The translations under genes were made by a program, and so were the position numbers. A DNA stretch of 64,000 nucleotides from an uncultured Gemmatimonadota bacterium (GTDB lineage: Bacteria > JAAXHH01): positions 2,496,001-2,560,000 of the forward strand of contig OX638340.1 of the NCBI GenBank assembly GCA_951812955.1, written 5' to 3'. A model generated the notes under the pieces. That model saw only the letters and a list, made by a program, of their open reading frames with translations, searched no databases and was not told the DNA's origin. Positions 38,823-53,771 of this stretch are shown here, in pieces. Positions within the stretch are counted from its first letter, which is position 1; every line of letters begins with the position of its first letter.

Positions 38823-39014
38823 ACACCCCTTTTGCAGTTTATCGGTATGCGTCGCACCTTAATCATTCGACTTGTGTGCGATGCGCATTGTTTCGTCGCG
38901 ATGTTGTGCATGCTTGTAAATGCTCTGCTTCACTAAGTGTTCGAGTGAGGGCGAAGGCGATTCGTGGAAGGCGGTGCTCCAGGATCAACGCTCTCAATAC
39001 TGAAGTGAAGAAGT

Positions 39015-39509
39015 TCAATCCGTACTATCCGGCAAATTCACTCCAAATTCCTTGATAAACCGCTCAAAGAAACCGGCCGACCTGTATTCCAACAGCACGT
39101 TTACAGGTTCTCCATCCATGCCCGATATGCCGAGCGGCTTTTCTCCCAAGAAAAATTCCAACCCAAGACTATCCACTTCCGGGTAACCGGATGACCGAAT
39201 AATCCACGCCGTGTCGACGACACCAGTTGCGTTCGAATGGACTCGAAGCAATACTTCTCCTTCGTTGATGAACTCGGGCGGAAGCGCTACGGTTAATGGC
39301 ATTAATGGTATTTCCCCATTTGAGCTCTCATCCTTGGAACGGAGAGTGTCTGATTGTCCTGTGCTATCCTGTTCCAGGTCGGTCATCGTCGTATCTATTA
39401 CAGTTTCGCCTTCCCGGTTCACATCGTCCTTTCCTTCACATGCCGTGTGACTCAGGATGAGGAAAAGCGACACCAGCGCGCATAGACTGATCACAGTCTT
39501 TTTTACCAT
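39015..39509 (-). CDS. Small secreted/lipoprotein with a TonB-C-like domain (cassette A).
   Basis: It has a signal peptide (VISLCALVSLFLILSHTAC). The C-terminal domain ALPPEFINEGEVLLRVHSNATGVVDTAWIIRSSGYPEVDSLGLEFF…GEPVNVLLEY fits the TonB C-terminal pattern. Confidence 0.65.
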   Translation of the reverse strand: MVKKTVISLCALVSLFLILSHTACEGKDDVNREGETVIDTTMTDLEQDSTGQSDTLRSKDESSNGEIPLMPLTVALPPEFINEGEVLLRVHSNATGVVDTAWIIRSSGYPEVDSLGLEFFLGEKPLGISGMDGEPVNVLLEYRSAGFFERFIKEFGVNLPDSTD

Positions 39510-39651
39510 TTGTTGAGTCATCGACCTTGATCCTCCAGATTGCGACGTTTCCAGTCTATCGGTGGAATACCGGTTGTCCCGCTCAGAATCCATGGTCTTC
39601 GACGTATTTGGCATCAGACCGTAGCCCGGCACCGGCCGGCGTCTATATCGT

Positions 39652-40540
39652 CTACCGGCCCGTCACTTCGATTCGATTCCGGATGCCACGCGTGTAAGTC
39701 AGATGCCCGCGTCGGTCAATCCAGATCCCTTCGACGTGAGGCAAATCATCCAGTAACCGCTTTGAATTCTCGACTCCCATGACGTACGTCGCAGTCGCCA
39801 GGGCGTCCGCCGTCATGGCGTCCGGGGCGATGACCGTGGCGCTGAGCACGTGGTTCGATGAAACCCCCAGCCGTGGATTGAGAATGTGAGCGATACGAGG
39901 GCCCTGGTGCAGTCTATAGTTCTCATAGTCTCCTGCCTTCGCAATGGCCTCGTCTTCGAGTTCGACCATGGCGCATAGTGCATCCATCCGAGCGGTATGG
40001 TGAACGTATCCCGATGCGCCACAGGCGAGTAAGCTCGAGCCATCACAGGGCAAAGATGTCTCCTCCGGCCGAAACCAGGCCACATCGGACCCGGTGGTCC
40101 CGCAACGCCCCGACCGCCCGATCCACCATCTTGCCGATCTCCCTGATCCCGCCATCGGCTTCGAGGGCGACGAGCAATCGAACGTTGTTGCACACGGGAC
40201 AACGAAGATCCTCCTGTACCTCGTAAACGTACCCTACAGGATCGCCCTGTTCACCGAAAATCACGTAGCGGTCATATTCCCGAAAGTCCTCGTGCTTCCG
40301 GGATTCGGCCATGTGGAACGTAACCGAAACAAACTCCGAAACTGTCGGTTCATCGAGCGGTGGAAACAGGTTGGACATGCCGGCTAGCTCGTTTGACATC
40401 CTGTAAAGCGACGGGTCGGATCCGACTACATCGGTTCCGCCGGATCCCATGAGATAGATGAGATTCACGGCCACGACTACGGTGCCTGCTCCGGCGATCA
40501 ACACCACCGCCATTCGACTACGTTTCAAAAACTGCGCCAT
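39652..40540 (-). pseudogene. Decayed FMN-binding-domain::ApbE fusion, formed by an internal deletion plus a frameshift (two overlapping ORFs, 40043-40540 and 39652-40155).
   Basis: The first ORF begins like the FMN-binding protein at 50779-51396 (TM helix, …EDLRCPVCNNVRLLVALE). It then jumps at 'DGGI' into sequence that aligns with the middle of ApbE at 49708-50709 (GGIAKGYGLDRMAHVLRNRHIRCGLISAGGD versus GGIREIGKMVDRAVGALRDHRVRCGLVSAGGD). That ORF stops after DIFAL. The ApbE C-terminal half (…YENYRLHQGPRIAHILNPRLG…ADALATATYVMG…) continues in another frame. Confidence 0.65.
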
Positions 40541-40582: not shown

Positions 40583-43027
40583 CTACTCGTACCTCAACGC
40601 TTCAACAGGATTCGACCGCGCCGCTTTGAGGACGTGTAGGCCGACCGTGGAGGCCGCTACGGCAAGAATGGCCAGGCCCACCAGGACAAAGAGCGCCGGG
40701 TTGGGCGCAATGCGATAGGCGAAGTCACGCAGCCAACTTTCCATGACGAGGTAGGCGATCGGCCAGGCGATGACGCTCCCCGCAATGGCCATGATCACGA
40801 ACTCTTTCGACAGAAGCTGTACAAGTTGCGCCCTGGTCGCCCCCAAAATCTTGCGAACGCCGATTTCCTTCGTTCGCTGGTGCACGGTGAGGGAGACCAG
40901 GTTGAATAGCCCCAGGAAGGTCAGCACAATGGCAAGCAACGCGCATATTCCGAGGAGCGTGCCAAGGCGTTCTTCAGCCAAATACAGCTGGTCTATATCG
41001 TCTTCGAGAAAGGAATAGACGAGCGGGATTTCCGGGTAATGGGATCTCCAGACGCTATTGAGGTCCTCGAGCGCGGAGGCCGTACTCCCAGGTTGCAGTC
41101 GAACGCTCATGTGTTCGCCAAAGGAACTGCTTAAGAATACCATGGGCTCGACGGGCTGGTAAAGAGAACGAAAGTGGGTGTCTTGAATCACGCCGACGGC
41201 TCTGCCGCGCTGGACGTACTGCGGTAAGACGATTTCGATCGTCTTGTCCAGGGCCACTTCAGCGGAACTCCATCCCAGATGCCGGACGGCCGTTTCATTC
41301 AGGACTACCTCGAATACGGCGAACGGATTGAACATCCTCATATCTCTTGGCTTCAGATTCGAGCCCAGCACCAGGCTTATGTCCAGGGTCTCGAAAAAGT
41401 CGTGCTCCACGTTCACTATGCGGATAGACGAGGATACCGGCATATCGCTGTCGTCCCCGCGTCGAACCATGGTTTCCCCGATCATGCCCCTCCCCGGCGC
41501 GAGCCCGGGAACGTAATCCGACAGGGAGACGCCCTCGATGTACGGTGACCGCAGCAACTCGTTCTGGAATCCATCGGAGGATCTAGGATTAAACTGTTGG
41601 GAGCCTTCAGAAGAGCTTGATTCAATGGCCTCCACGAAGAATCCCGATATGAGGGGAACGACTATCACATTGGATTTTTCGAAGCCCGGAGGTTCGTTCA
41701 TCATGAACCGCAACTGGCTGTAGACCACACCCGTGCCGATGATCAGGATGGCGGAAAGGGCGAACTGGACCGTGATAAGAATACGCTTCACAAAGGGATA
41801 GTCGATCGCCTGGCTCAACCGGCGGCTAAGTGCGTCCATCGGCCGGTATCCAGACAGAACCATGGCCGGAAAACTCCCCGAGAATGCCCCCACGAGGACT
41901 GAAATGGCGATCAGACCAAGCCATATGTCGAGGTGTTGTATAAAACCCATGGACAGTGCCTTCCCAGTCACGGCGTTGAAGGCTGGAAGCGAAAGCCGGG
42001 CAAGCAGAACCGCCAGGACGAGTACCAGGCCTGAGATCATTACGGACCCGCTCAGATACTGCACGACAATACGTGAACGGTTCGCGCCGTACACTTTCAT
42101 TAGGCCCACTTCCTTCGCGCGGGCTGTCGACTGAACCATAGACAGATTGATGAAGTTGATGCAGGCGATCAGCAGCAGGAAAACGGCCCCCGTCATGAGG
42201 GTGTAGAGATAGGCCACACTGCTGTTCGCCTCGAGTTCGTTGAGTAGATTGGAACGCAGGTGAATCGCGGTCAGCGGTTGAAGGGAAAACCGGTAGTCCC
42301 GGATGCTCTCCCGGTTCACGGGCTTGATCTCGGTGTCGAAGTAAGCCTGGAACTTGGACGTCAGTTCCGGCACCAGGCTCTGATCGTGCAAACGCAGGTA
42401 CGTATAGTAGGTTGCGCTCCACCAGTTGTCCATGAACTGCAATTCCGTTCCGAAAGACAGGAACATGTCCGCGGTGAAATGCGTATGGCCCGGGAAGTCC
42501 TCCATGACGCCCGTGATGGTAAAGCTGTACGTGTTGTCCAGGCGCATCACCTCGCCCATGGGGTCCACTTCGCCGAAGTACTTCCTTGCCATCGATTCCG
42601 AGATGACCGCTTTGTTCTGCCCCTCCAATGCGGTGGCGGGATTCCCCTTGAGCAGGGGGATGGTGAAAACGTCGAATAGCGAAGGCTCGGTCCAGTAGAC
42701 CCGGTCTTCGTAGAACTCCCGGTCACCGAACCGTATAAGCCAAATGGCCCGAGTCGCCCGCATGCGGACAGCGCTTGCTACTTCCGGAAAGTTCTGTTTC
42801 AGCGTGGAAGCCGCTGCGCCCGGCGTGCGCGCGTTGTTGCCATTGATCAGCCGATAGACCTGCGGAGCGTACCTGTGGTGTGTATCGTAGGTCCATTCGT
42901 CCTTTATGTACAATAGCGTGAGTACGCACGCGGCCATGGCGATGGCCAGCCCCGTGACGTTGATGGTCGTATGGGATCTTTGCTTGAGCAGGGCTCTGAC
43001 GGCTATTCTGAGGTGGTGGGTGAACAT
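40583..43027 (-). CDS. MacB-like ABC permease with duplicated FtsX domains (cassette A).
   Basis: It is roughly 815 aa with the same topology and conserved blocks (TARAKEVGLMKVYGA, QRTKEIGVRKILGAT, C-terminal NPVEALRYE) as the permeases at 21794-24193 and 46447-48864. The chosen start MFTHHLRIAVRALLKQRS aligns with its paralogs. Confidence 0.85.
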   Translation of the reverse strand: MFTHHLRIAVRALLKQRSHTTINVTGLAIAMAACVLTLLYIKDEWTYDTHHRYAPQVYRLINGNNARTPGAAASTLKQNFPEVASAVRMRATRAIWLIRFGDREFYEDRVYWTEPSLFDVFTIPLLKGNPATALEGQNKAVISESMARKYFGEVDPMGEVMRLDNTYSFTITGVMEDFPGHTHFTADMFLSFGTELQFMDNWWSATYYTYLRLHDQSLVPELTSKFQAYFDTEIKPVNRESIRDYRFSLQPLTAIHLRSNLLNELEANSSVAYLYTLMTGAVFLLLIACINFINLSMVQSTARAKEVGLMKVYGANRSRIVVQYLSGSVMISGLVLVLAVLLARLSLPAFNAVTGKALSMGFIQHLDIWLGLIAISVLVGAFSGSFPAMVLSGYRPMDALSRRLSQAIDYPFVKRILITVQFALSAILIIGTGVVYSQLRFMMNEPPGFEKSNVIVVPLISGFFVEAIESSSSEGSQQFNPRSSDGFQNELLRSPYIEGVSLSDYVPGLAPGRGMIGETMVRRGDDSDMPVSSSIRIVNVEHDFFETLDISLVLGSNLKPRDMRMFNPFAVFEVVLNETAVRHLGWSSAEVALDKTIEIVLPQYVQRGRAVGVIQDTHFRSLYQPVEPMVFLSSSFGEHMSVRLQPGSTASALEDLNSVWRSHYPEIPLVYSFLEDDIDQLYLAEERLGTLLGICALLAIVLTFLGLFNLVSLTVHQRTKEIGVRKILGATRAQLVQLLSKEFVIMAIAGSVIAWPIAYLVMESWLRDFAYRIAPNPALFVLVGLAILAVAASTVGLHVLKAARSNPVEALRYE

Positions 43028-43040
43028 GATCGGGTGCTCC

Positions 43041-45503
43041 CTACGGTTCCAGGACAAGAAAGTTGACCGACTTGAAGACGCGCTGATCAGCGTGCCGGTC
43101 CGTCAGCGTCACGGTCAGCACATACTCCCCGGCTTCGAGATCCGTGGTGTCCATCGCGGTGTATTCAGCCTCTTCCGCTGAACTCCCCTCGCCTTCGAAG
43201 AAGGACATCACAGTCTGCATGTCGTCCGGCCTTCTGGCCCTGCGGTTCCTCAGTGCGGGCATGCCCAGGGGCGTGATTTCGTAAAGTGTCTCGTAGGAAG
43301 TGCGTCCGGCGTTGCCTAAATCCAGGTTGTACAATTCGTAGTAAACGTAAACGGGGTTTCCCCGAATGTAGAGCCGTCCCGGATTGGGCGTGATATTCAA
43401 CCCCTTGCGCACAAAGGGGCCCTGTACGCCTGACGGCGTGATGAGGGTGGCCAGCTTGAGATCGCTGATGAGCAGGTCGCGGCCGCGGTAGTCGGACAGC
43501 GTGACTGGCTTGCGATACACTCCGACCCGGCTCGTTGTCTCGTCCCGCACCTGGACTGCCAGCGTGAAACTACCCGACGGCGCGACAACGCTTTCAGGCA
43601 GGGTATACACCGGAACTTTCACGTTGCTTTCAGCCATCATACGCTTCGGCCTGTCGAAGGGACCGAAACCGAACTCGTGGGTGAACTGGGGGCTCATGGT
43701 CGAATCACGCAGGGTGACCAGGTGCGCGAGCCGGGTGCTGTTACCCCTGCCGTCCGAGACATCGCCGAACTGCCACACGGGGATGCTGTAGGACAGGTCC
43801 AGTTCCGTCGCGCCGTTGTCAGCCCTGTAGCTTACGGCGTCGAAGGCATATTCGAGTGGTTCTCCCCCGAAGTCGTGCAGGAATTCCTCGGGACTGCGCT
43901 TGATCAGGTTCTCGGCAACTCGTTGAGGATGATGGGTATCGTTTCGACGCATCAACTCGAAACCCGTGATGTCACCAAACGAATCCCCACCTTCATAGAT
44001 TGTCTGAAGTGGATAATCGAATTTCCCACCGCCCATCTGGTCCACGAAAAACAGTTCAAGATTATGCTGTACGTAAACCCAGCTTTCGACCTTGTACGAT
44101 TCTCCGACCAGACGTTTGAGTAACTCGAATGGATTGCTCTCCGACGAGCTCCCCCAGAGATCCACCGATCCCAAATCGAATCCCTGGAGCTGCATGATCT
44201 CCTCATCCAACAACGCCACCGGATCTCCCCTGCCCACCCGCAACACGTAGCCGGACTGCATATTCCGCACGCGTATTGCGTCCACGGCAGGAATCGCCGA
44301 CGGCTTGAAAACGGAAAAGGTGTTCCCATGCCTGCGCAGCAAGAAGTTGCTACGGTCATCCGGCGTACCGTATCGAACGTGAATCTCCCCGCGGCGGTCA
44401 AAGGGATACTGGCCCTCTGAGAAATGATTGCGGGCGTACAGTACGCGCCGGTAGTGTTCCACCAGGCGCTCGTTTTCGACGGTGGCCGGATTGGAATCCC
44501 GTGCGTTCCAGAAGGTCTGCCACAGCGCGTCGCGTTCCGGTCCTTCCACAGCCTCCCAGGTCTTCAATTCATCGGGAGGCGCGACATGTCGCAGGTCCCG
44601 GTACACCGCCTGCTCATCGGGATCGAGACCCGATATATAGGTCTCCAGGGCTTCCTGCAATCGATCGAACCCCCGTTCAGTCGAACCCGAAAGCATGCTG
44701 AACTGAAGCTGCAGGGTCCTGACCTCGTCCGCGACGGCATCTCCTGATTCTTCGACCAACTGTCCCAGGAGTTCAGCACCTATTTCGAACGCTTCGGCAC
44801 GAAGACACACATTGGTAAACCGCTCGAAGGCCCGACGGTGTTTGGGGTTTACCCGGTACTGGTTGAAATAGGCGGCTATCGCTTTTTCGTAGTCCGGCAA
44901 CGGGGGACTTTCATAACATCGTCCCAGTTGATAGTAGGCGTCCTCATGGGATGGATTCAGCTCTACGACCTTGAGGAAATACGTCCTGCCATCCCGGTCG
45001 CTGCCCACGATGGTATCTACTTTTTTATCATTCATGAAGGACATGCCCAGGTAGTACTGGGCGTCCGCGTTGTCCGGATCCAGGCGGATCGCGGTACGCA
45101 ACGCGTTGCGGGCATCCAGCTTTCTGTTTTGCAACTTCAGGTAGGTCTTCCCCAATCCGATGTGACCAGGCGCCCATTTTTTGTCCTGCCGCACTGCGCT
45201 CCTGAACGAACTCAACGCCTCACGGTAGTCGCCCAATTCATACCGCGCCATTCCGAGCCAGTAGTGGGCGGGCGCCGAATCCCCGTCAGCCTTGACGGCC
45301 ATTAGGAAGTACGGCAGCGCTTCCGCGTATCGTCCCTGTTGGTAAAGTGATTTGCCTTTTTCGTGGGCTGGCAGATCAATATCGGATACGGCCGATTGCG
45401 GCGGGGAAGTCCAGGTCTGGGAATGGCCGGGTAAACTCAGTGCAAGCGCGGCGATTGTAAGAAGCAGGCGGACGTACACGTAGTGCCTCTTTGGACGAAT
45501 CAA
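43041..45503 (-). CDS. Secreted TPR-repeat protein with a possible GWxTD-family C-terminal region.
   Basis: It has a signal peptide and several TPR units (AHYWLGMARYELGDYREAL, GHIGLGKTYL, AQYYLGMSF). It has a segment FDRRGEIHVRYGTPDD that resembles the (GWxTD)RG-x-IY-x-YG-x-PD block. The family call is from memory. Confidence 0.6.
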   Translation of the reverse strand: MIRPKRHYVYVRLLLTIAALALSLPGHSQTWTSPPQSAVSDIDLPAHEKGKSLYQQGRYAEALPYFLMAVKADGDSAPAHYWLGMARYELGDYREALSSFRSAVRQDKKWAPGHIGLGKTYLKLQNRKLDARNALRTAIRLDPDNADAQYYLGMSFMNDKKVDTIVGSDRDGRTYFLKVVELNPSHEDAYYQLGRCYESPPLPDYEKAIAAYFNQYRVNPKHRRAFERFTNVCLRAEAFEIGAELLGQLVEESGDAVADEVRTLQLQFSMLSGSTERGFDRLQEALETYISGLDPDEQAVYRDLRHVAPPDELKTWEAVEGPERDALWQTFWNARDSNPATVENERLVEHYRRVLYARNHFSEGQYPFDRRGEIHVRYGTPDDRSNFLLRRHGNTFSVFKPSAIPAVDAIRVRNMQSGYVLRVGRGDPVALLDEEIMQLQGFDLGSVDLWGSSSESNPFELLKRLVGESYKVESWVYVQHNLELFFVDQMGGGKFDYPLQTIYEGGDSFGDITGFELMRRNDTHHPQRVAENLIKRSPEEFLHDFGGEPLEYAFDAVSYRADNGATELDLSYSIPVWQFGDVSDGRGNSTRLAHLVTLRDSTMSPQFTHEFGFGPFDRPKRMMAESNVKVPVYTLPESVVAPSGSFTLAVQVRDETTSRVGVYRKPVTLSDYRGRDLLISDLKLATLITPSGVQGPFVRKGLNITPNPGRLYIRGNPVYVYYELYNLDLGNAGRTSYETLYEITPLGMPALRNRRARRPDDMQTVMSFFEGEGSSAEEAEYTAMDTTDLEAGEYVLTVTLTDRHADQRVFKSVNFLVLEP

Positions 45504-45625: not shown

Positions 45626-46297
45626 TTACGCGGCCTCCGTCACGATCCGTCCGTCGAAGAGCCTGATGGTCCGGTGGGCGTGGTCGGCCAGCGCCTGGTC
45701 GTGGGTCACCATGATGATGGTCGTGCCCGCCTCGTTGAGGCCGTTGAGCAGTTCCATCACCTCGGCGCCGTTGGCCGAGTCCAGGTTACCCGTCGGCTCG
45801 TCCGCCAGGATCAGCCTGGGGTTGCCGATGACCGCCCGCGCCACGGCCACGCGCTGCTGCTGGCCGCCGGATAGCTGCTGCGGGAAGTGGTTCCGGCGGT
45901 GGGGGATCTGCATGTGCTCCATCGCCGCGTCCACCCGTTCCTTGCGCTCCTGCTTCGACGTGCCCAGGTAGATCAGCGGCAGTTCGATGTTCTCGTACAC
46001 GGTCAGCTCATCGATCAGGTTGAAGCTCTGGAAGACGAAGCCTATGTTGGCCTTGCGCAGGTTGGCGCGCTGCCGCTCGGAGTGGCCGGACACTTCCTGG
46101 TCCAGGAAATGGTACTCCCCGCCCGATGGATTGTCGAGGAGACCGAGGATGTTGAGCAGGGTGGACTTGCCGCAGCCCGAGGGTCCCATGACCGCCACGA
46201 ACTCGCCTTCGTCCACGGCCATGGTCACATCGTTCAGCGCCGTCGTCTCTACCTCTTCGGTCGCGTAGAGTTTCTTGAGATGTTCTGTCCTGATCAT
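45626..46297 (-). CDS. MacB/LolD-type ABC ATP-binding protein (cassette B), a near-identical paralog of 38148-38822.
   Basis: The motifs are the same. DNA identity to the cassette-A ATPase is high from about codon 10 to the stop and ends abruptly at both gene ends. The gene has backbone-like GC and sits at the edge of low-GC DNA. Confidence 0.85.
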   Translation of the reverse strand: MIRTEHLKKLYATEEVETTALNDVTMAVDEGEFVAVMGPSGCGKSTLLNILGLLDNPSGGEYHFLDQEVSGHSERQRANLRKANIGFVFQSFNLIDELTVYENIELPLIYLGTSKQERKERVDAAMEHMQIPHRRNHFPQQLSGGQQQRVAVARAVIGNPRLILADEPTGNLDSANGAEVMELLNGLNEAGTTIIMVTHDQALADHAHRTIRLFDGRIVTEAA

Positions 46298-46446
46298 GGT
46301 GCGCTCCCGTAGTGTGGTAATACTCCGTATCCACGCATGCCATTTCGGAATCGTTCCTAATATCAAAGTAGCAAATGAAGAGGGTTGCAATTCCAGGTCG
46401 GAGAGATTAACTCCATAGATTGTGCGACTACGTTCATGCTGGAGAA

Positions 46447-48864
46447 TCACTCATACCTGAGCGCATCTACCGGGTTCAACGGTGCTTCTTTTGTAACATG
46501 GAAGGCAATCGTAGCGATGATTACTAACAGAATCCCCATGCTTACCAAGATGTAGAGGCTAAGGGGTGGAGAAACTCGATATGCGAAATCTTGTAACCAA
46601 ACGGCAGTAACCAAGTACGCCAACGGCCACGCTACCAGATTGGCGATCGCTGCCATAACTACAAACTGTCTAGACAGCAACTGAGTCAATTTCATAACTG
46701 TAGCACCCAGGGTCTTGCGTATGCCTAATTCCTTCGTTCTCTGTTTTGTGGTCAGGGAGACCAGGTTGAAAAGTCCCAGGAATGTCAAGATAGTAGCTAA
46801 GATGGTACAGACACCTATAAGCGAACCTAGACGTTTCTCCGGTACGTAAAGTCGATCAATATCGTCCTCCAAGAGGGAATAGATAAATGGAATTTCAGGA
46901 AAATAAGACTGCCAGGTAAGATCTAGGTAACTTAACGCAGATTCCATTTTCCCATCCTGAAAGCGCACCATCATGTGTTCGCCATTACCGTTCGTGAAAA
47001 CCATCGGTTCAACAGGCTGATAAGACGACCGGAAGTGGGCATCCGCAACGACACCTACAACCCTGCCTCGTTGGGTGATCTGAGGGTATACGATATCTAT
47101 CGTCTGGTCTACTGCTGACACTGGAGAAGTCCAACCTAGGTGGCGTACTGCCGTTTCGTTGAGAACAAGCTCGATTACGGGCAAAGGCCCAAAAGTCGAA
47201 TATGTAGCAAGACTCCTGTGCCTCAAAAAGCGTCCGTGTACCAGCTGTAAACCCAGTGTGTTTATGTAATCGTGCTCAACGCCCACAAATCGTACGGATC
47301 TGGAATTCCTCAGACTGTTTCCTGCCCGAGTTCGAACCATCCCATCACCCATTGTACCACGGGCAGGTTCAAGTGCCGGCACATAAGTTGAGAATGAAAC
47401 GCTGAGTACATCTGGCGATCTCAACATATCGTTTTTGAATCCGCTAGGTGGAACTAGTATTCCGCCTGGGAAGAAGCCTGTTATCAGGGGTACATTGACT
47501 ACATTTGATTCGTCAAAACCCTGGGGTTTGGTCAACATGTATTGAATCTGGATGTAGACCACGCAGGTGCTGATAATCAGAATAGTGGAGAGAGAAAACT
47601 GGATGATGATGAGCATCCGTTTCACCAGTGGAAAGTCCACTGAATGGCTGATTCTGTTTCCAAGAGAAAAGAGAGGGTGTACTCCTGACATAACCAAAGC
47701 CGGAAATCCTCCTGAAACGACTCCAACGATTATCGCAACGACAACTATCCCAAGCCAGATTCCAAAGTCTTCAGTAACGCCAAAAGAAAGCGTTTTACCT
47801 GTCAGCCAATTAAATGATGGCAGTGCAAGATAGGTCAAAATGAGAGCTAAAAACAAAACCAACATCACCATGGTTAAGGATGCAATCATATGCTGCCTGA
47901 TAATCTGAATTCGATCAGCACCGAAAATCTTAATCAAACCCACTTCCTTCATCTGATCAGCCGAATGAACCATAGACAGATTGACAAAATTGATTGAAGC
48001 GATGAGCAACAAGAAGATCGCACCTGAAATGAGCGCAAAGATGTAACTCACACTGCTATTCACCTCGAGTTCATTCAAAAGGCGGGAACGAAGGTGAATC
48101 TCCGTTAGTGGTTGAAGTATGAAACTATACTCCCGGATCCACGCGCTGTTGCTAGGTTTTACCGTTGATTCAAAATACCGCTGAAACTTGTCTTCGAGAA
48201 TTGAAGCCTGGTTACCTTCGTTCAACCGGACGTAGGTGTAATAGTCGGGACGCGACCAGTTGTCAATGTAGGATAGTTCATTGCCGAAACTCAGGAAGAA
48301 CCCAGCCTCGAAATGGGAGTTGACCGGGAAATCCTCCATTATCGCGGTAACGGTAAAATCCCATGTGTTGTCGGCTTGCAACACCTTACCGATGGGATCT
48401 TCCTCGCCAAAGTACTTTCTGGCGACTGACTCTGATATAACGACCTTGCCTATGCCATCCAACGCGTTGGTTTTGTTCCCCTTTACAAGTGGTATGGTAA
48501 AGACATCAAACAAGGAGGCTTCGGTCCAGTATACCTTATCTTCGTAAAAAGCACGATCACCGTACTGCATTAGCCAGATGGCCCTGGCCGCCCTTAAACG
48601 AACAGTACTTACAACTTCAGGAAAGTTCAGCTCAAGGGAACCTGAGGCGGCACCTGGAGTTCGGGCATTGGTGCCGTCAATCAATCGGAAGATCTCGTTG
48701 GCGTGTTCGTGGTGAGAATCGTATTTCAGTTCTTCCTGGATATACATCAGGGTTAAAATACACATAGCCATCCCGACAGTTATTCCGCTGATGTTTAATA
48801 TGGTATTGGATTTCTGCTTTAATAGTGCACGGGTGGAGATTTTCAGGTGGTGGGGTAGTTCCAT
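46447..48864 (-). CDS. MacB-like ABC permease with duplicated FtsX domains (cassette B, low-GC).
   Basis: It is 805 aa with the same architecture and conserved blocks (SADQMKEVGLIKIFGA, QRTKELGIRKTLGAT, NPVDALRYE). Confidence 0.85.
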   Translation of the reverse strand: MELPHHLKISTRALLKQKSNTILNISGITVGMAMCILTLMYIQEELKYDSHHEHANEIFRLIDGTNARTPGAASGSLELNFPEVVSTVRLRAARAIWLMQYGDRAFYEDKVYWTEASLFDVFTIPLVKGNKTNALDGIGKVVISESVARKYFGEEDPIGKVLQADNTWDFTVTAIMEDFPVNSHFEAGFFLSFGNELSYIDNWSRPDYYTYVRLNEGNQASILEDKFQRYFESTVKPSNSAWIREYSFILQPLTEIHLRSRLLNELEVNSSVSYIFALISGAIFLLLIASINFVNLSMVHSADQMKEVGLIKIFGADRIQIIRQHMIASLTMVMLVLFLALILTYLALPSFNWLTGKTLSFGVTEDFGIWLGIVVVAIIVGVVSGGFPALVMSGVHPLFSLGNRISHSVDFPLVKRMLIIIQFSLSTILIISTCVVYIQIQYMLTKPQGFDESNVVNVPLITGFFPGGILVPPSGFKNDMLRSPDVLSVSFSTYVPALEPARGTMGDGMVRTRAGNSLRNSRSVRFVGVEHDYINTLGLQLVHGRFLRHRSLATYSTFGPLPVIELVLNETAVRHLGWTSPVSAVDQTIDIVYPQITQRGRVVGVVADAHFRSSYQPVEPMVFTNGNGEHMMVRFQDGKMESALSYLDLTWQSYFPEIPFIYSLLEDDIDRLYVPEKRLGSLIGVCTILATILTFLGLFNLVSLTTKQRTKELGIRKTLGATVMKLTQLLSRQFVVMAAIANLVAWPLAYLVTAVWLQDFAYRVSPPLSLYILVSMGILLVIIATIAFHVTKEAPLNPVDALRYE

Positions 48865-49707
48865 AACTGGCCTACAGATACTTAGTAAATGGTTCTAAGA
48901 GGGTTGTGATTAACGTCGAAGGGGCAGTTGAAAGTCTATAACTGCCTGTACGTTTAAACTCGTCCTCCGGTTTGATCAGCCCCAGACGTTCGCCGAGTGT
49001 TTTGGACTCGTCCACCACTGGCATTCAGCGAGGAGAGCATTTCCGTTGTCGGTGCGTGGAGCGTCGTTTGTTTTTTAACCTTGATGAATTCAATACCCAG
49101 ACGAAGTCGGTCAATCAACTCTTCCAACTGCTTGATTTGAATAGGCTAATAGAGGAAGTCACGGCGAAGGCTTCACTGGCAATATCGCGACTTTGATTCA
49201 GGTAGTTAATGTTGTCGTACGCATCTTAGTCTCCATGTGCGCTGTCAGGTTGGGTCTGTGACGGATTTTGTGTTACTGACTTTATCATGTTAAGGGCACT
49301 TTGTCTTCGTACATGATGATGAACTTGCTGGTGGCGGCCGTCCAGTTGGCGATGGGCCGTGTCTACCTTCGGGCCAGGTAGAGCAGTTTCCTGGCTACCC
49401 CGTCGGTGGGGAAGGCGCCGCCGCGCTATGGTCACCCCCAGTCTGCATGAGCACGTTCACCGCCCGTTACAATTCTGCTTCACATTGCATGGCGGCCAGC
49501 AATAGACTGGCAAAAGACGGTCAAAGGACAGGCGTAAACTTGTCGCTCTGAGTGCTATCCTTTACATAAACCTCTTCGACTCAGTCGTCTTCCACGGCTT
49601 CTTTATTCAGTCGACGTTTTCATCAAGCCCTTTAGATCCTCGTCGGTCTGTCTTGAAGCTACCGTGTATTTAACACCGCTCCCTTGTCATGAAGTACGAC
49701 CCACTCG

Positions 49708-50709
49708 TTAATTGACAATCTGCAATCTATTCTGGATCCCTCTTGTAAAAATAAACTGTCCATGCTGATCAATCCAGATCCCCTCGACGTATGGCATATC
49801 GTTCAGCAATCTCTGAGAACTTTCGATACCCATAACATAAGTCGCTGTGGCAAGCGCATCCGCTATCATTGCGTCGGGAGCGATAATCGTGGCGCTATGC
49901 ACGTGATCCGTCGAAGTCCCAAGTCGAGGATTGAGTATGTGTGTAATACGGCGACCTTGATTGATTTTGTAGTTTTCATAACCACCCGACGTCGCAACCG
50001 CCTCATCTTCGATTTCGACTGTGGCGCACAATGTATTGGGATGGTATGGAGACCGGATACCAATACGCCAAAGACGTTCAGGTTCTGGCCTTCCCATGGC
50101 AAGAACATCCCCACCTGCAGATATCAACCCGCATCTAATGTGGCGGTTTCGTAATACGTGAGCCATTCGATCCAATCCGTAACCTTTTGCTATTCCGCCA
50201 AAGTCTACCCCATAACCAGACGAAGCAATTCGTACTTTCTGTTCTTGCACTTGCAACTGATTAAAGTCTACCAGTTCGAGCATTTGCCGTAAGCTTCGAC
50301 TTGACGGATCACAATTATAAAATCCCCAGTGGTACATAATCGGTAGAATTGTCACATCGAAGGCACCATCTGTAATCTCGCCGATTCGTCTTGCTGTAGT
50401 CGCGACCTTGATAAAGTGGGGTGTTACGCCATGCCAAAGCCCATACATGTTGTTTACATGCGTAAGTTCACTGGTATTACGATAGAGGCTTAGCAGGCTG
50501 TCAATTTGAGCTAAAGCATCGAAGGCATCATAAATTGATTCTTTACTGTACTCGCATTCCTTGATTACAAGTTCTACTTTCGTCCCCATATGAATCTGAT
50601 GACGACGAACAAGCCTTTGCTTGTCTGACAATCCTGCGCCAAAATTGTATGGCACAAGTAACATTGCCGATGAAAGGCCGACCGATTTTATGAAATTGCG
50701 TCGCTTCAT
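49708..50709 (-). CDS. apbE: FAD:protein FMN transferase ApbE (flavin transferase), with a Tat/lipoprotein-type signal.
   Basis: It has an N-terminal MKRRNFIKSVGLSSAML signal. The ApbE family blocks are present (HMGTKVELVI…, GAFDVTI…, VDFGGIAKGYGLD, ISAGGDV, ATSGGYENY, PRLG, ADALATATYVMG). It is 333 aa. Confidence 0.85.
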   Translation of the reverse strand: MKRRNFIKSVGLSSAMLLVPYNFGAGLSDKQRLVRRHQIHMGTKVELVIKECEYSKESIYDAFDALAQIDSLLSLYRNTSELTHVNNMYGLWHGVTPHFIKVATTARRIGEITDGAFDVTILPIMYHWGFYNCDPSSRSLRQMLELVDFNQLQVQEQKVRIASSGYGVDFGGIAKGYGLDRMAHVLRNRHIRCGLISAGGDVLAMGRPEPERLWRIGIRSPYHPNTLCATVEIEDEAVATSGGYENYKINQGRRITHILNPRLGTSTDHVHSATIIAPDAMIADALATATYVMGIESSQRLLNDMPYVEGIWIDQHGQFIFTRGIQNRLQIVN

Positions 50710-50778
50710 AGGGGCTATGCTATGATGGAATCTAGGACCATCTTTGTTTTCAAAAACAAGGCTACGTACAGAAAGCCC

Positions 50779-51396
50779 CTAACCTCGATGGATATGCCTA
50801 AGTCTATTGAGAGCATCAACAATATGAATCGAGCTTTTGGTAGCACCTGTGATTCCGTCGATATTTTCGCCTAATACGTAGAAATGTAGGTTCGGTTTCG
50901 ACTTAAATTGCCTCAGAAACCTCGTTTCATCCTCAACAGATAGTGGTTCACCGGAGAGTTCAAGGGGTTCAAGCACTCTGATATCATGGAGCCGACCCAA
51001 GTCATCGAGTGCGACGAGCATTCGGACGTTATTGCAAACAGGACATTTGAGATCCTCCTGTATTTCGTAGACGTAGCCAACAGTGTCGATTCGTTCGTCA
51101 AACACCACATATCGATCGTAACCTCTGAATTTCTCGTGTTTGCTAGAATAGCTTTCAGAGAAAGCGGATATAGTGAATTCCCTTAAGATACGATCGTCAA
51201 GTGGTGGGAATATGTCGGATGAAGTAATCGAACCACTTCCCGATCCCAAGTTCGACACGTGTGAGTAAATCACATCGTCATCACATGAATGTCCGGATAA
51301 GTAGACTATATTGACCACAGCAATTACTACTCCGGTTATAAGAAACATGGTTCTTTGAATGAGTTTGAAATTTCGCATACTACAACCGAACTCCAT
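50779..51396 (-). CDS. Membrane-anchored FMN-binding domain protein (NqrC/RnfG/NosR-type FMN_bind), the predicted flavinylation substrate of ApbE.
   Basis: It has an N-terminal TM helix, a CPVCNN element and the flavinylation-type motif IDGITGATKSS near the C-terminus. Its 5' end lies 70 nt after the apbE stop. Confidence 0.75.
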   Translation of the reverse strand: MEFGCSMRNFKLIQRTMFLITGVVIAVVNIVYLSGHSCDDDVIYSHVSNLGSGSGSITSSDIFPPLDDRILREFTISAFSESYSSKHEKFRGYDRYVVFDERIDTVGYVYEIQEDLKCPVCNNVRMLVALDDLGRLHDIRVLEPLELSGEPLSVEDETRFLRQFKSKPNLHFYVLGENIDGITGATKSSIHIVDALNRLRHIHRG

Positions 51397-51515
51397 CTTC
51401 GTTTGAGCAGAAGAGGCCGAAGTTTGACTGGTTGTTCCTTGGGAGCCACGACATAGATTTGGGATTTCACTGACTGAACAGAATGTTGAGTTGAGGGGAG
51501 GCCGAGCCAATACAC

Positions 51516-51911
51516 TTATCTAAGGCGGAAGCTCATTGGAAAGTAGAATTGCGCAGATATAGGCTTTCCTTCCTTAGTCGCTGGCTTGAAAATCATCATT
51601 CGTGCTTGCGACAGTGCAAGACTATCTAGTTCTGGATGGGTCGACGATTCTATGATCGAAACAGATTCCACCGTGCCATCTGCCTTAGATCTTAAGAGAA
51701 GTACAACATCGCCTTCATTGCTGTACTTATCCTGTGGCGTGGGTCTAAACAATAGTCGTGGAGACGTATCCCAATCACCCACTTTAGCTATAACTTCAGT
51801 GTCAACTTGGGTTTCTTCCACCGGCACACTATCGTTCTCTACATTTCTGTCGTTACTGCAGGAGATGACTAACGAAAAGAGTACAATCTGGGACAGGCTG
51901 AATCGAAGCAT
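51516..51911 (-). CDS. Lipoprotein with a TonB-C-like domain (cassette B).
   Basis: It has the lipobox LVISC. Its C-terminal domain reads EGDVVLLLRSKADGTVESVSIIESSTHPELDSLALSQARMMIFKPATKEGKPISAQFYFPMSF. Confidence 0.65.
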   Translation of the reverse strand: MLRFSLSQIVLFSLVISCSNDRNVENDSVPVEETQVDTEVIAKVGDWDTSPRLLFRPTPQDKYSNEGDVVLLLRSKADGTVESVSIIESSTHPELDSLALSQARMMIFKPATKEGKPISAQFYFPMSFRLR

Positions 51912-52022
51912 TTGTGGAGCCCTTTCTGTCATATGAGGTCGATTTCTGAACGCGAGGTAAATTCTGATTCATGTTCTAACTTTCAATGTGATTCAAAATC
52001 ACCAGTATAAGTTAAAACCTGA

Positions 52023-53735
52023 TCAATCGGGGCTATTGACCCGAGAAGTAAATCGAAAATTGTATTTAAATATCGTATTTTGGGGGACGATGAGTCGTGT
52101 TCCCATAGTGGGCATTAAACGAAACCTGCCTACAGACTCTAAGGCGATACTATCCAGTGCCGGATGTGCTGATGGTGTCTTTGTCCAAATCGAATCTACG
52201 ATACCATTTGAGTCGAAAAGTACGTTCACTGCAATTTCCATTTCGTCAAGATGACCGTACTCAAGAGGGAATGCACGACTCGTAGCCGTACCGAGGTGCA
52301 AGATTAGAGGTTCTTCATACGATGGCACAACATAGTCGTCAATGATCCCGTCGGTCACTAGTCGAATGTATTGGTCATATCCTTCCAAGGATCGCCAGGA
52401 ATCATCTTTTGTGAATCTGGCGATACTCTGTGCAAAAGATGTAAAAGGGAGGTCACCGATACGGCGAGGATGGGACATCATGTTGACGGATTGATTGTTG
52501 GCGTACGATCTGATAAAAAGACTCGATTCATCTATCGGCATGGAAGACACGTTATCGAAGTATCGTGTGAAAGTTGACCGGTCCGACCCGTTGGAATCAT
52601 GGGCTTCGGTGGACGGCATGTTAGTGAAGTATTGAGAGATATCAAATCGGTCTGACCCGCTGGATGCCTGCACTTCGCGATAGGTAGTTGTAGTCAGATA
52701 GTACTCCACATTTGAAACGTAGAATACGGAAATGGTCGCATCATGAGACCGGACGTAGTCTGATATACCACGCAAGGCTGTTTCACCGGCGAAATCACCT
52801 ACGACTGGAACGATCAAGTTCCTCCCGTGCAACTTCTTGACGACGTCAAATGCACTATCATCAGCAAGGAAGTTGGCTTGCTCCCCACTTATCGTTTCTG
52901 CAAGAATCAACTCCCGCAGACTCGGGAAATTAAAGGTTGCATCCCCCGGTGTTCCCAGATCGTACTGGATGTCTAACTGGCTCCTGAAGAAAGCCTGATA
53001 GACTCGTTCGACAGCTTTCATATCTTCCATCGAGTCTATGCCATACGAATGTAAATGGGACTTGATGACCCGGAGATTTCGCTCGTAGAGTTTTACATCG
53101 GGATCTATTCCGTCGAAATATGCGATCAGCGTTGCAACAGATGATTCACTTCGAGACCAGGGCCGGACCGGTCCTCCCTTAAATATCTCGGCCAGGTAGG
53201 AGAGATTCCGGTTCAATGGTTTGCTGAGCAGCCTAGACAGGAATTCAGCACTGTCGCTGGACTGAGCGAAGAGGGACTTGTAGATCAGGTGCAACAGCAT
53301 GTTATCGCGACGAATGTCAACCACGAAAGCCATGTGCGGCCTGGTCTCGGCGATGTAGGTAAAATTCTGTTCGGGGCCGACACCCACATAAACGCCACCG
53401 GAAACGTGCCGTTCGCGTAGTACGGCAAATGGATGCAGGTAAGAAGATTCGTTTGAGGTGAAATTGGTTGAATGAAAGGAGCCACCCGTCTCCGACAGTT
53501 CTCTAATCAGGTTCGAGAAGGCTGGCGTGGACAGTGAGTCCGGGAGGGCACCTGCTCTTGGATATGGCTTTACAGTCCTCTTGTTAGACCAATCAGAAGG
53601 ATTGTAACACTGGACTGCAAACAACATCACGACAACACCTGCCGTTATCCATGTTGTTGTTTTCCATATAACCATATCCGAGGATTTCCAAGCAGCTAAA
53701 GATTGACCTAAGTATTGTGAAAGTCTCTCAGCCAC
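52023..53735 (-). CDS. Large membrane-anchored protein of unknown function with a C-terminal TonB-C-like domain (cassette B).
   Basis: It has an N-terminal TM helix and a roughly 380-aa domain I could not assign (…GVYVGVGPEQNFTYIAETRPHMAFVVDIRRDN…IVPVVGDFAGETALRGISDYV…). The C-terminus, PSYEEPLILHLG…GIVDSIWTKTPSAHPALDSIALESVGRFRLMP…FKYNFRF, matches the TonB-C pattern. Confidence 0.58.
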   Translation of the reverse strand: MAERLSQYLGQSLAAWKSSDMVIWKTTTWITAGVVVMLFAVQCYNPSDWSNKRTVKPYPRAGALPDSLSTPAFSNLIRELSETGGSFHSTNFTSNESSYLHPFAVLRERHVSGGVYVGVGPEQNFTYIAETRPHMAFVVDIRRDNMLLHLIYKSLFAQSSDSAEFLSRLLSKPLNRNLSYLAEIFKGGPVRPWSRSESSVATLIAYFDGIDPDVKLYERNLRVIKSHLHSYGIDSMEDMKAVERVYQAFFRSQLDIQYDLGTPGDATFNFPSLRELILAETISGEQANFLADDSAFDVVKKLHGRNLIVPVVGDFAGETALRGISDYVRSHDATISVFYVSNVEYYLTTTTYREVQASSGSDRFDISQYFTNMPSTEAHDSNGSDRSTFTRYFDNVSSMPIDESSLFIRSYANNQSVNMMSHPRRIGDLPFTSFAQSIARFTKDDSWRSLEGYDQYIRLVTDGIIDDYVVPSYEEPLILHLGTATSRAFPLEYGHLDEMEIAVNVLFDSNGIVDSIWTKTPSAHPALDSIALESVGRFRLMPTMGTRLIVPQNTIFKYNFRFTSRVNSPD

Positions 53736-53771
53736 TTCTTTTGACTAAGAGACTCTCACGCCGGATCAGCC

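What the first reader, a model, noticed from the sequence alone, without database searches (positions are those of the whole stretch)
45626..46320. Near-identical ATPase paralogs with a sharp GC and homology breakpoint at the edge of the low-GC cassette
The ATPase at 45626-46297 is roughly 93 percent identical in protein to the cassette-A ATPase at 38148-38822, and its DNA matches closely. Homology starts around codon 10 and ends exactly at the stop codon. The adjacent permease and all other cassette-B genes are clearly AT-richer. This pattern fits gene conversion or replacement of the incoming ATPase of cassette B by the resident one, or an island junction lying inside the first codons of the gene. 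It is a mosaic operon.
Basis: seen in the sequence. Interest (0 to 1): 0.55.

Follow-up and report, generated by a model that had tools for sequence, protein, structure and literature searches.

The report
Conserved transporter ATPase, swapped permease cassettes
Two copies of a strongly conserved, GC-rich ABC-transporter ATPase gene sit beside very different, AT-richer permease gene sets; the patchwork is real, but a sister genome has the same one, so it is old and is an ordinary product of genome rearrangement rather than a recent gene conversion or a fresh island.

Summary
ATPase A (38148-38819) and ATPase B (45626-46297) are 93.3% identical in protein and 89% in DNA. The similarity is confined to the ORF. 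GC falls from about 65% to 47% at about 46300.

- In six related MAGs and two metagenome scaffolds this ATPase is the second gene of a GC-rich adaptor (MFP)-ATPase pair. The pair comes in two paralogue types with distinct leaders. B is type 1; A is type 2 and lies next to the rRNA operon.
- In this window both copies have lost the adaptor gene. A decayed remnant of it lies at 48953-49601, upstream of the AT-rich permease.
- The low-GC junction lies 14-30 nt upstream of B's ATG, not inside the first codons.
- The whole cassette-B/ATPase-B mosaic, GC step included, recurs in a TARA Oceans scaffold (16S 98.97% identical). There the ATPase (dS 0.34) and the cassette genes (dS 0.31-0.49) have diverged equally, so the mosaic is ancestral.
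- A and B differ at dS 0.41 and share no exclusive derived sites, so there was no recent conversion.
- Gene-body trees group copies by genome lineage rather than by type, which leaves room for older, occasional conversion.

Verdict: an ordinary member of MacB/DarBCD-like exporters with ADOP-type permeases. Modest interest.

The parts
45626..46297 (-). ATPase B: 223-aa ABC ATP-binding protein, type-1 copy, GC 64%, GC3 90%
   Evidence: PF00005 E=3.6e-35. Best NCBIfam match is DarD at 273.7 bits, below the 375 cut-off. 93-94% nt identical to L001 and L002; 91% to the positional orthologue in L081.
46298..46327 (-). Type-1 leader and RBS of ATPase B (…CACACTACGGGAGCGCACC-ATG). This is the last stretch shared with MFP-ATPase pairs of other genomes, so it marks the junction with the low-GC DNA.
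   Evidence: blastn matches to L001, L002, L004-L007, L081 and L084 end at 46310-46327. Alignment A3.
46328..46446 (-). Spacer between the permease and ATPase B. It is not conserved even with the syntenic TARA locus.
   Evidence: No blastn match to L081, although the flanking genes are 87.5% and 91% identical.
46447..48864 (-). perm805: duplicated MacB_PCD+FtsX permease (ADOP-like), GC 46%, GC3 51%
   Evidence: Pfam: two MacB_PCD and two FtsX stretches. ADOP 206.8 bits, below the 622 cut-off. Orthologues at 86% (L081) and 70% (L084, L086).
48953..49601 (-). Pseudogene remnant of the periplasmic adaptor (MFP/HlyD-DarC-like) gene. It is truncated at both ends, frameshifted and carries in-frame stops.
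   Evidence: tblastn with MFPs of relatives matches residues about 105-158, 224-278 and 277-297 at 48-67% aa identity in different frames. Stops are seen within the matching frames. 70-74% nt identity to L001, L002, L005 and L006 MFP genes over 48954-49142. Alignment A2.
49708..55055 (-). Rest of low-GC cassette B: ApbE 49708-50709, FMN_bind protein 50779-51510, TonB_C protein 51516-51932, DUF7790 protein 52023-53735, truncated PDZ protein 53772-55055
   Evidence: Pfam. Syntenic with L081 at 84-91% nt identity from ApbE to DUF7790; only part of the PDZ ORF (53857-54452) matches, at 82%.
43041..45503 (-). TPR820: TPR-repeat protein directly downstream of ATPase B, not a permease
   Evidence: Pfam TPR families. 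80% identical in both nt and aa to the L007 gene that there abuts the rRNA operon.
40583..43057 (-). perm824: duplicated MacB_PCD+FtsX permease of cassette A, GC 57%
   Evidence: Pfam. ADOP 284 bits, below cut-off. 84% aa and 83% nt identical to the L002 permease, but only 57% aa to perm805.
39652..40540 (-). Decayed FMN_bind-ApbE genes of cassette A. An ~0.8-kb deletion fuses the FMN_bind N-terminal part to the middle of ApbE, followed by a frameshift.
   Evidence: orf165 (40043-40540) matches the L002 FMN_bind protein, residues 1-131, at 72.5%, then continues into ApbE sequence. 39652-40155 matches the ApbE C-terminal half (Pfam positions 180-265). The window lacks L002 7360-8202.
39015..39632 (-). 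orf205: weak TonB_C-like protein immediately upstream of the ATPase A leader
   Evidence: NCBIfam tonB_Cterm E=1.4e-4, below cut-off. Similarity to the cassette-B TonB_C protein was seen by eye in the sequences.
38820..38914 (-). Type-2 leader of ATPase A. It is shared with L003 and L089, where an intact MFP gene precedes it.
   Evidence: The blastn match to L003 runs to 38914. 38859-38914 is 76.8% identical to L089. Alignment A3.
38148..38819 (-). ATPase A: 223-aa ABC ATP-binding protein, type-2 copy, convergent with the rRNA operon, GC 61%, GC3 84%
   Evidence: PF00005 E=5e-36. The positional orthologue in L089 is 88.3% nt identical and lies within a block collinear from 30313 to 38088. It has the most unique substitutions of any copy, biased GC>AT.
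32890..38077 (+). rRNA operon (16S, tRNA-Ile, tRNA-Ala, 23S, 5S) and its hairpin terminator at 38048-38077, which also faces ATPase A
   Evidence: Rfam and ARAGORN; terminator scan.
19077..24193 (-). Third, distant set used as comparison: ATPase C 19077-19769 and permease perm799 21794-24193
   Evidence: Pfam. ATPase C is 47-49% identical to A and B; perm799 is 36-40% identical to the other two permeases.

Best explanation
A and B are two paralogous copies of a lineage-specific, strongly constrained MacB/DarD-like ABC ATPase gene.

Shown:
- In related genomes each copy is the second gene of a GC-rich pair made of a periplasmic adaptor (MFP) gene and the ATPase gene.
- The pair exists in two types that differ in leader and in the first codons. 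Type 1 (MIRTEH…) includes B. Type 2 (MIAT/MITT…) lies next to the rRNA operon and includes A.
- In this genome both copies have lost the adaptor gene to rearrangements with AT-richer accessory cassettes built around ADOP-like duplicated FtsX permeases plus TonB_C, FMN_bind, ApbE and DUF7790 genes.
- Upstream of B, perm805 sits where the 3' third of the adaptor gene was, and a decayed remnant of that gene survives at 48953-49601. The join lies 14-30 nt upstream of the ATG.
- Upstream of A, a second and partly decayed cassette abuts the type-2 leader about 95 nt upstream of the ATG.
- The ATPase is under strong purifying selection (dN/dS about 0.1). The two copies coalesce about as recently as the species of this genus. 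The permeases belong to anciently diverged paralogue families.
- The B mosaic, with its GC step, was already present in the common ancestor shared with a TARA Oceans genome and has been inherited vertically since.

Inferred:
- The ATPase energises type VII (MacB-like, mechanotransmission) exporters formed with the duplicated permeases.
- Because many permease modules in these genomes lack their own ATPase, and the core 'locus 1' pair lacks a permease, the ATPase probably serves several permeases. That would explain its extreme protein conservation.
- The adaptor is supplied in trans by the intact type-1-like MFP gene (P0206), which lies outside the window on the 3.81-Mb contig that also carries perm805 and is taken to be this genome.
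For: Pair structure and contexts:
- All seven loci L001-L007 have a 444-478-aa MFP ORF (GC3 78-88%) directly upstream of the ATPase (GC3 81-90%). The MFP passes the TIGR01730 cut-off.
- Locus 1 is collinear in L001, L004, L005, L006 and L084 and has no permease within 10 kb, except for an AT-rich DUF7790-permease insertion in L084.

Adaptor remnant. About 50% aa identity with stops but 70-74% nt identity fits neutral decay of the GC-rich gene. Functional paralogues at 57-63% aa identity are only 64-67% identical in nt.

Leader types and junctions.

Age of the mosaic:
- L081 has the same gene order and the same GC step (permease 45.7% GC; ATPase 64.3%, GC3 90%).
- 16S is 98.97% identical (measured against L089, which lies on the same scaffold as L081); two GC-rich genes just upstream of the rRNA operon are 85% identical.
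- dS: ATPase B 0.34, perm805 0.40, ApbE 0.31, TonB 0.40, DUF7790 0.49.
- L089 shows that A's positional orthologue next to the rRNA operon has an intact MFP.

No recent A-B exchange: dS 0.41, no exclusive shared sites, and B is nearer to L001 and L002 than to A.

Catalytic motifs are intact in both copies in the sequences: GPSGCGKST, LSGGQQQR, LILADEPT, VTHD.
Against: - Gene-body trees do not recover the two leader types. Type-2 monophyly appears in 0/300 bootstraps; L089(t2)+L084(t1) has 92% support; adding L081(t1) gives 81%. Within-genome t1-t2 dS (0.33-0.41) is no larger than orthologue dS. So some conversion or leader swapping after the duplication is likely, and pure vertical divergence is too simple.
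- The presumed third copy in this genome, next to MFP P0206, could not be retrieved. Homogenisation of B with that copy is therefore untested.
- The origin of the low GC is unresolved. It could be foreign DNA or an internally maintained composition. It is at compositional equilibrium, not ameliorating.
- The shared-ATPase ('hub') role and the substrate are inferred only.
Confidence: 0.68

Rival explanations
1. Occasional, older gene conversion (concerted evolution) among the ATPase paralogues of a genome keeps the ORF bodies similar while leaders and flanks stay distinct. On this view the A/B similarity is partly the trace of such an event near the time of the last speciation. This is compatible with the best explanation and refines it.
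For: - The gene-body tree groups copies by genome lineage, not by leader type: 0/300 bootstraps for type-2 monophyly, 92% for L089_t2+L084_t1, 81% with L081_t1 added.
- A carries the type-1 'LDQ' state at codons 65-67 but the type-2 state at codon 3.
- Within-genome t1-t2 dS (0.33-0.41) is no greater than orthologue dS (0.29-0.49), although the duplication predates these species.
Against: - Only five type-diagnostic sites exist, so the signal is thin.
- No exclusive shared sites are found for winA+winB or L001+L007, and only one for L081+L089.
- A near-star radiation with saturation of the few free sites at GC3 of about 0.9 could mimic the pattern.
- No formal recombination test was run.
Confidence: 0.35
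2. One reading: cassette B arrived recently as a low-GC island with its own ATPase, and that ATPase was then overwritten by, or converted to, the resident ATPase A-like gene.
For: - Sharp GC step at about 46300 and ORF-limited homology.
- Permeases are 57% identical against 93% for the ATPases.
Against: - A and B differ at 74 of 672 nt (dS 0.41) and share no exclusive sites. B is closer to copies in other species than to A.
- The same mosaic is present in L081, with equal dS for the ATPase and the cassette.
- The adaptor remnant shows that a GC-rich MFP-ATPase pair was there first.
- Related AT-rich permease modules lack an ATPase.
Confidence: 0.07
3. A recent horizontally acquired island whose right-hand junction falls inside the first codons of ATPase B.
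For: - Low GC over 46300-55500.
- Cassette B is absent from the six GTDB species representatives searched.
Against: - The leader and first codons of B (MIRTEHLKKLY) match type-1 copies in other genomes, and homology continues to 46310-46327.
- No integrase, tRNA target or terminal repeats were seen in 37900-56500.
- The island is shared with L081 at orthologue-level divergence and shows no amelioration trend.
Confidence: 0.05
4. Assembly artefact: a chimeric join at a repeated ATPase gene in a metagenome-assembled genome.
For: - The ATPase is multi-copy.
- Two short-read contigs (L082, L083) break about 30 nt into it.
Against: - An independent TARA assembly (L081, 265-kb scaffold) has the same permease-ATPase join and continues 9 kb beyond it.
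- The exact perm805 protein lies on a 3.81-Mb contig.
Confidence: 0.02

Closest known systems
MacAB-TolC / DarBCD-type tripartite ABC exporters (type VII ABC, MacB fold; reviews PMC5985334, PMC8277102)
   Same: - ATPase with LolD/MacB/FtsE/DarD-like sequence.
- Permeases with MacB periplasmic core and FtsX domains.
- In relatives, a periplasmic adaptor gene directly upstream of the ATPase.
   Different: - ATPase and permease are separate polypeptides, and the permease is an internally duplicated ~800-aa protein.
- All scores fall below the DarB/C/D equivalog cut-offs.
- No darobactin precursor or rSAM context is linked.
- In this window the adaptor gene next to each ATPase is destroyed or deleted.
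- An outer-membrane partner was not looked for.
ADOP family duplicated (orphan) permeases, NCBIfam TIGR03434
   Same: - About 800 aa with two MacB_PCD+FtsX halves.
- Many paralogues per genome.
- Several modules lack an adjacent ATPase (L086, L087), and the core MFP-ATPase pair lacks a permease.
   Different: - Scores of 207-287 bits are far below the 622 cut-off, so these are relatives and not members.
- Here two permeases do sit close to an ATPase gene: perm805 directly upstream of B, and perm824 about 1.8 kb upstream of A.
- The host lineage is labelled Gemmatimonadota or Latescibacterota, not Acidobacteriota.
Replacement-type flexible genomic islands flanked by conserved genes (e.g. PMC10872708; concept known from marine bacteria and O-antigen loci)
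   Same: - AT-richer, highly variable gene content between conserved, GC-rich anchors.
- The 6.8-kb stretch between the two ATPase copies is replaced by an unrelated 20 kb in a congeneric genome.
   Different: - The anchors are two direct-repeat paralogues of one gene.
- Cassette B itself is stably inherited between the two genomes.
- No population data were examined.
Shared ('multitask') ABC ATPases such as MsiK of Streptomyces (from my own knowledge, not checked here)
   Same: One conserved ATPase inferred to serve several membrane components that are encoded elsewhere.
   Different: MsiK serves importers of a different ABC type. Sharing is only inferred here, from gene neighbourhoods and sequence conservation.

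Membership tests
ABC transporter ATP-binding protein (PF00005) | Pfam ABC_tran domain above the gathering score; Walker A, ABC signature, Walker B and H-loop present | tested here: met
   A scores 124.7 bits and B 122 bits against a cut-off of 25. GPSGCGKST, LSGGQQQR, LILADEPT and VTHD are present in both sequences.
DarD equivalog (NF038007), darobactin exporter ATPase | Whole-protein score at or above the curated cut-off of 375 bits | tested here: not met
   273.7 bits (B) and 277.3 bits (A). It is the best-scoring family but below cut-off.
MacB-type (type VII) ABC permease | MacB periplasmic core domain (PF12704) plus FtsX C-terminal domain (PF02687) | tested here: met
   Both domains are present twice in perm805, perm824 and perm799, all above the gathering scores.
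ADOP family (TIGR03434) | Score at or above 622.3 bits | tested here: not met
   206.8, 284 and 286.6 bits.
ADOP family (TIGR03434) | 'Orphan' status: no ATPase gene adjacent to the permease | tested here: inconclusive
   perm805 is adjacent to ATPase B, and perm824 lies 1.8 kb upstream of ATPase A. Orthologous modules in L086 and L087 have no ATPase.
Tripartite MacAB-like pump | Periplasmic adaptor (RND_mfp, TIGR01730) encoded together with the ATPase | tested here: not met
   In the window there is only a pseudogene remnant at 48953-49601 and no intact MFP. In relatives the feature is met: the L002 MFP scores 123.1 bits against a cut-off of 94.9. An intact MFP, P0206, lies outside the window on the 3.81-Mb contig taken to be this genome.
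Tripartite MacAB-like pump | Outer-membrane factor (TolC-like) partner | not tested
   No search for OMF genes was made.
Recent gene conversion between paralogues | Paralogues within a genome are more similar to each other than to orthologues, with shared derived sites or tracts | tested here: not met
   A-B 89% nt against B-L001 93-94%. dS 0.41. Zero exclusive shared sites.
Concerted evolution of a gene family (older conversion) | The gene tree follows genome lineage rather than paralogue type | tested here: inconclusive
   Type-2 monophyly in 0/300 bootstraps; the L089_t2+L084_t1+L081_t1 clade has 81% support. Few informative sites exist, and no species tree is available.
Recently acquired genomic island | Deviant composition | tested here: met
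   Island genes are 44-51% GC against about 63% for the core.
Recently acquired genomic island | Mobility genes, tRNA target or flanking repeats; absence from close relatives | tested here: not met
   No integrase or transposase domains were found in the ORFs scanned, no flanking repeats, and the only tRNAs lie inside the rRNA operon. The island is present in the closest available relative, L081, at orthologue-level dS.

The most novel reading that the evidence does not exclude
In this marine lineage the ATPase gene acts as a fixed hub in two senses.
- Functionally, a single, almost invariant ATPase sequence energises many divergent, AT-rich 'orphan' duplicated permease modules.
- Genomically, its 670-bp near-identical direct-repeat copies act as recombination anchors that bracket a hypervariable segment and let permease cassettes be swapped or homogenised.
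Meanwhile the genome stably keeps two compositional compartments (GC3 about 0.9 and about 0.5) over speciation timescales without amelioration.
Probability: 0.2. Interest if true: 0.5.

Novelty: new member of a known kind. Interest (0 to 1): 0.27.

Why it matters
Practically, this case shows that a sharp GC step with ORF-limited near-identity between paralogues need not mean recent transfer or conversion. Here the step is ancestral, is inherited vertically, and is not drifting toward the host composition.

If the hub-ATPase idea holds, it would give a concrete and testable example of how large families of orphan ADOP-like permeases are powered. That question is still poorly documented. It would also show conserved ATPase repeats structuring a variable region next to an rRNA operon.

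Otherwise this is routine operon reshuffling in an uncultured marine lineage.

Tried and rejected
- Exact-sequence look-ups of ATPase A, ATPase B and the genome's intact MFP (P0206) found no record. The genome's presumed third copy could therefore not be compared.
- Promoter and terminator scans over 37900-49800 were at shuffle level (7 against 7.3; 12 against 12.1). Only the rRNA terminator hairpin at 38048-38077 stood out.
- A repeat search over 37900-56500 found only the ATPase and ApbE paralogue pairs and nothing resembling element ends.
- Rfam found only rRNA and tRNA.
- Whole-cassette duplication is rejected. Permease synonymous sites are saturated, ATPase dS is 0.41, and gene orders differ.
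- The remnant as a divergent, cassette-borne low-GC adaptor gene is rejected as less likely. Its nt identity to the GC-rich MFPs (70-74%) is too high for its ~50% aa identity, and it carries stops.
- Hyper-conservation of the ATPase DNA relative to its neighbours is rejected. Against the TARA genome it is 88-91% identical, compared with 84-91% for adjacent genes.
- Two literature searches gave only general reviews of MacB/FtsX and papers on flexible genomic islands.
Full report
**Observation**

The window carries two 223-aa ABC ATPase genes on the minus strand: A at 38148-38819 and B at 45626-46297.
- They share 208/223 residues and 598/672 nt. There are 45 synonymous and 15 non-synonymous codon differences.
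- Identity is 25-30 per 30 nt through the ORF, 18/30 over the first ten codons, and at chance level on both sides. It stops 3 nt past the stop codon.
- B has 64% GC (GC3 90%). The permease just upstream (46447-48864) has 46% GC (GC3 51%). The 400-nt profile falls from 0.65-0.67 to 0.47-0.48 across about 46200.
- One correction: 43041-45503 is a TPR protein, not a permease.

**Anatomy of the region**

An rRNA operon occupies 32890-38039 on the plus strand. ATPase A is convergent with it. Reading along the minus strand, the order is:
1. Truncated PDZ protein, DUF7790, TonB_C, FMN_bind and ApbE (55055-49708).
2. An 840-nt stretch without ORFs.
3. perm805, then ATPase B.
4. TPR820.
5. perm824.
6. 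An FMN_bind/ApbE fusion broken by an ~0.8-kb deletion and a frameshift (40540-39652).
7. A weak TonB_C-like ORF.
8. ATPase A.

So there are two anciently diverged accessory cassettes: 57% identity for the permeases and 58% for ApbE. Their gene orders differ, and each ends in an ATPase. A third, distant ATPase/permease set lies at 19-24 kb. Core genes in the window are about 63% GC, and the accessory blocks are 44-57%.

**Relatives**

A scan of species-representative genomes returned seven loci from six MAGs of 3.5-3.8 Mb. Most are unnamed; one is labelled Ca. Latescibacterota, and NCBI names for homologous proteins say Gemmatimonadetes.
- Their ATPases are 90-99% aa and 86-94% nt identical to A and B. 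The next best hits, from other phyla, are only 69-77%.
- In every one of the seven, the ATPase directly follows a 444-478-aa adaptor (MFP) ORF. Both genes are GC-rich, and the adaptor passes the RND_mfp cut-off.
- In L001, L004, L005, L006 and L084 the pair lies in a collinear GC-rich neighbourhood: KdtA/LpxK, LpxB, lactonase | MFP-ATPase | two convergent SBP_bac_5 genes. No permease lies within 10 kb.
- The exception is L084, where an AT-rich DUF7790-permease module (41-46% GC, 70% aa to perm805) is inserted right after the ATPase.
- L002 shows the intact form of cassette A, upstream of MFP-ATPase. L003 and L007 have permeases on both sides of the pair and lie near the rRNA operon.

**Two paralogue types and the true junctions**

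Leaders fall into two types.
- Type 1 (…CACATCACGGGAGCAAACC-ATG ATC AGG, MIRTEH…) is found in B, L001, L002, L005, L081 and L084.
- Type 2 (…CAAAGGGGGCGTGTG-ATG ATA (A/G)CG, MI(A/T)T…) is found in A, L003, L007 and L089.

B's homology with other genomes continues to 46310-46327, 14-30 nt upstream of its ATG. The junction with the AT-rich DNA is therefore in the leader and not in the first codons.

A's leader is shared with L003 and L089 to about 38914. The weak match between A and B over codons 1-9 comes from the type difference plus seven A-specific changes in codons 4-8.

**The lost adaptor gene**

The ORF-free stretch upstream of perm805 contains fragments matching adaptor residues about 105-297.
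- They are 48-67% identical in aa, lie in shifting frames and carry in-frame stops.
- They are nevertheless 70-74% identical in nt to the GC-rich adaptor genes.
- Functional paralogues at 57-63% aa identity are only 64-67% identical in nt here. The remnant therefore looks like a neutrally decayed copy of the GC-rich gene rather than a divergent cassette-borne homologue.

So B was originally the second gene of an MFP-ATPase pair, and perm805 now occupies the place of the adaptor's 3' third. An intact type-1-like adaptor (P0206, 87-88% identical to L001, L002 and L005) lies outside the window on the 3.81-Mb contig that also carries perm805, taken to be this genome. Its locus could not be fetched.

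**Age of the mosaic**

The perm805 orthologue P0002 (86% identical) led to a TARA Oceans scaffold (L081).
- L081 has the same order: DUF7790, TonB_C, FMN_bind, ApbE, gap, permease, ATPase.
- It has the same GC step: permease 45.7% GC; ATPase 64.3%, GC3 90%.
- About 20 kb further along the same scaffold, L089 carries MFP, a type-2 ATPase and the rRNA operon. That block is collinear with window 30313-38088.
- The two genomes are 98.97% identical in 16S, 97.7% in 23S and 85% in two GC-rich genes just upstream of the rRNA operon.
- Nei-Gojobori dS values: ATPase B 0.34, perm805 0.40, ApbE 0.31, TonB 0.40, DUF7790 0.49, ATPase A against L089 0.49.

The ATPase and the AT-rich cassette have therefore diverged together since the common ancestor, so the mosaic is ancestral. 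Third-position changes in perm805, polarised with outgroups, are balanced on the window branch (18-31 AT>GC against 22-30 GC>AT). The low GC is at equilibrium and is not ameliorating. The independent assembly also rules out a chimeric join.

**Was there gene conversion?**

Recent conversion between A and B is not supported.
- dS(A,B) is 0.41 and dN/dS is 0.12.
- B is closer to L001 and L002 (93-94% nt) than to A (89%).
- A and B share no exclusive derived site.
- A is the most derived copy: 21 unique states, 12 GC>AT against 4 AT>GC. This fits relaxed constraint in a decaying cassette.

Some older exchange is plausible.
- Both types occur at conserved positions in several genomes, so the duplication predates them. 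Yet within-genome t1-t2 dS (0.33-0.41) does not exceed orthologue dS.
- NJ trees of codons 10-219 never recover type-2 monophyly (0/300 bootstraps).
- The same trees group L089 (t2) with L084 (t1) at 92%, and with L081 (t1, same genome as L089) at 81%.
- A has the type-1 'LDQ' state at codons 65-67.

With only five type-diagnostic sites and no species tree, this points to occasional older conversion or leader swapping but does not prove it.

**How it most likely works**

Shown:
- Both ATPases have intact catalytic motifs and evolve under strong purifying selection.
- The permeases have the MacB periplasmic core and FtsX architecture, duplicated.
- Relatives encode an adaptor with the ATPase.

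Inferred:
- These are MacB-type (type VII) mechanotransmission exporters, as reviewed in PMC5985334 and PMC8277102.
- The ATPase is shared among several permease modules. The core pair has no permease next to it, and several permease modules have no ATPase.
- The adaptor is supplied in trans in this genome.
- The substrate is unknown. The linked TonB_C, FMN_bind and ApbE genes hint at an envelope flavoprotein function, but I did not test this.

**Comparison and novelty**

The components are relatives of DarBCD and ADOP, but all score below the curated cut-offs. I do not file them as members. The genomic pattern resembles replacement-type flexible islands, with the twist that the anchors are paralogous copies of one gene. 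The segment between them differs completely between congeneric genomes. None of this lies outside known kinds of systems.

**Verdict**

It is an ordinary, ancient operon mosaic. Interest is about 0.27.

Noticed in passing
window 46447-55055; L081, L084, L086 permease genes: The AT-rich cassette keeps GC3 of about 0.48-0.53 in four genomes, next to core genes at GC3 0.8-0.9. Polarised third-position changes in perm805 are balanced on the window branch (18-31 AT>GC against 22-30 GC>AT), so the composition is at equilibrium rather than ameliorating. What maintains two compositional compartments is unexplained.
   Followed up: partly
window 38148-38819: ATPase A has the most lineage-specific substitutions of all copies: 21 in total, 14 synonymous and 7 non-synonymous, 12 GC>AT against 4 AT>GC. 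Seven of them cluster in codons 4-8. This suggests relaxed constraint on the copy that sits in the decaying cassette.
   Followed up: partly
window 39652-40540: The FMN_bind and ApbE genes of cassette A are fused by an ~0.8-kb deletion relative to L002 (7360-8202 missing) and then frameshifted. They are probably pseudogenes.
   Followed up: partly
window 53772-55055 versus L081 1-5362: The 427-aa PDZ ORF is the N-terminal part of an 888-aa PDZ-HisKA-HATPase sensor kinase in the TARA genome. The window lacks about 4.8 kb: the kinase C-terminal half, two response regulators and three small ORFs.
   Followed up: partly
window 46317-46434: The spacer between perm805 and ATPase B has no detectable similarity to the syntenic TARA locus, although the flanking genes are 87.5% and 91% identical.
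   Followed up: no
L082 and L083 (ends at 12642 and 12634): Two short-read contigs carrying the perm805 orthologue terminate about 30 nt into the ATPase gene. This is as expected if the multi-copy ATPase breaks short-read assemblies.
   Followed up: no
window 38820-45625 versus L081 13281-22418 plus L089 1-11450: The segment between the two ATPase copies is 6.8 kb here (TPR820 plus cassette A). In the congeneric TARA genome it is an unrelated ~20 kb holding a PDZ kinase, response regulators, S41 and S8 peptidases, rSAM, another permease, a glycosyltransferase, an ABC protein, BtrH_N and the MFP.
   Followed up: partly
window 24324-26198 and 26538-28412: Two tandem 624-aa proteins with identical ECF-sigma domain layouts (Sigma70_r2 and r4 at the N-terminus plus a long C-terminal extension). 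They are probably a tandem duplication inside another lower-GC block.
   Followed up: no
window 4763-6004 and 6015-7277: Two adjacent full-length MoeA (molybdopterin molybdenumtransferase) paralogues.
   Followed up: no
window 29504-30394 and L003 13137-14153: The GldB-like/DUF2268 gene on the far side of the rRNA operon in the window (70% aa identical) lies between a permease and the ATPase fragment in L003. This is a further sign of rearrangement around the rRNA operon and the ATPase copies.
   Followed up: no
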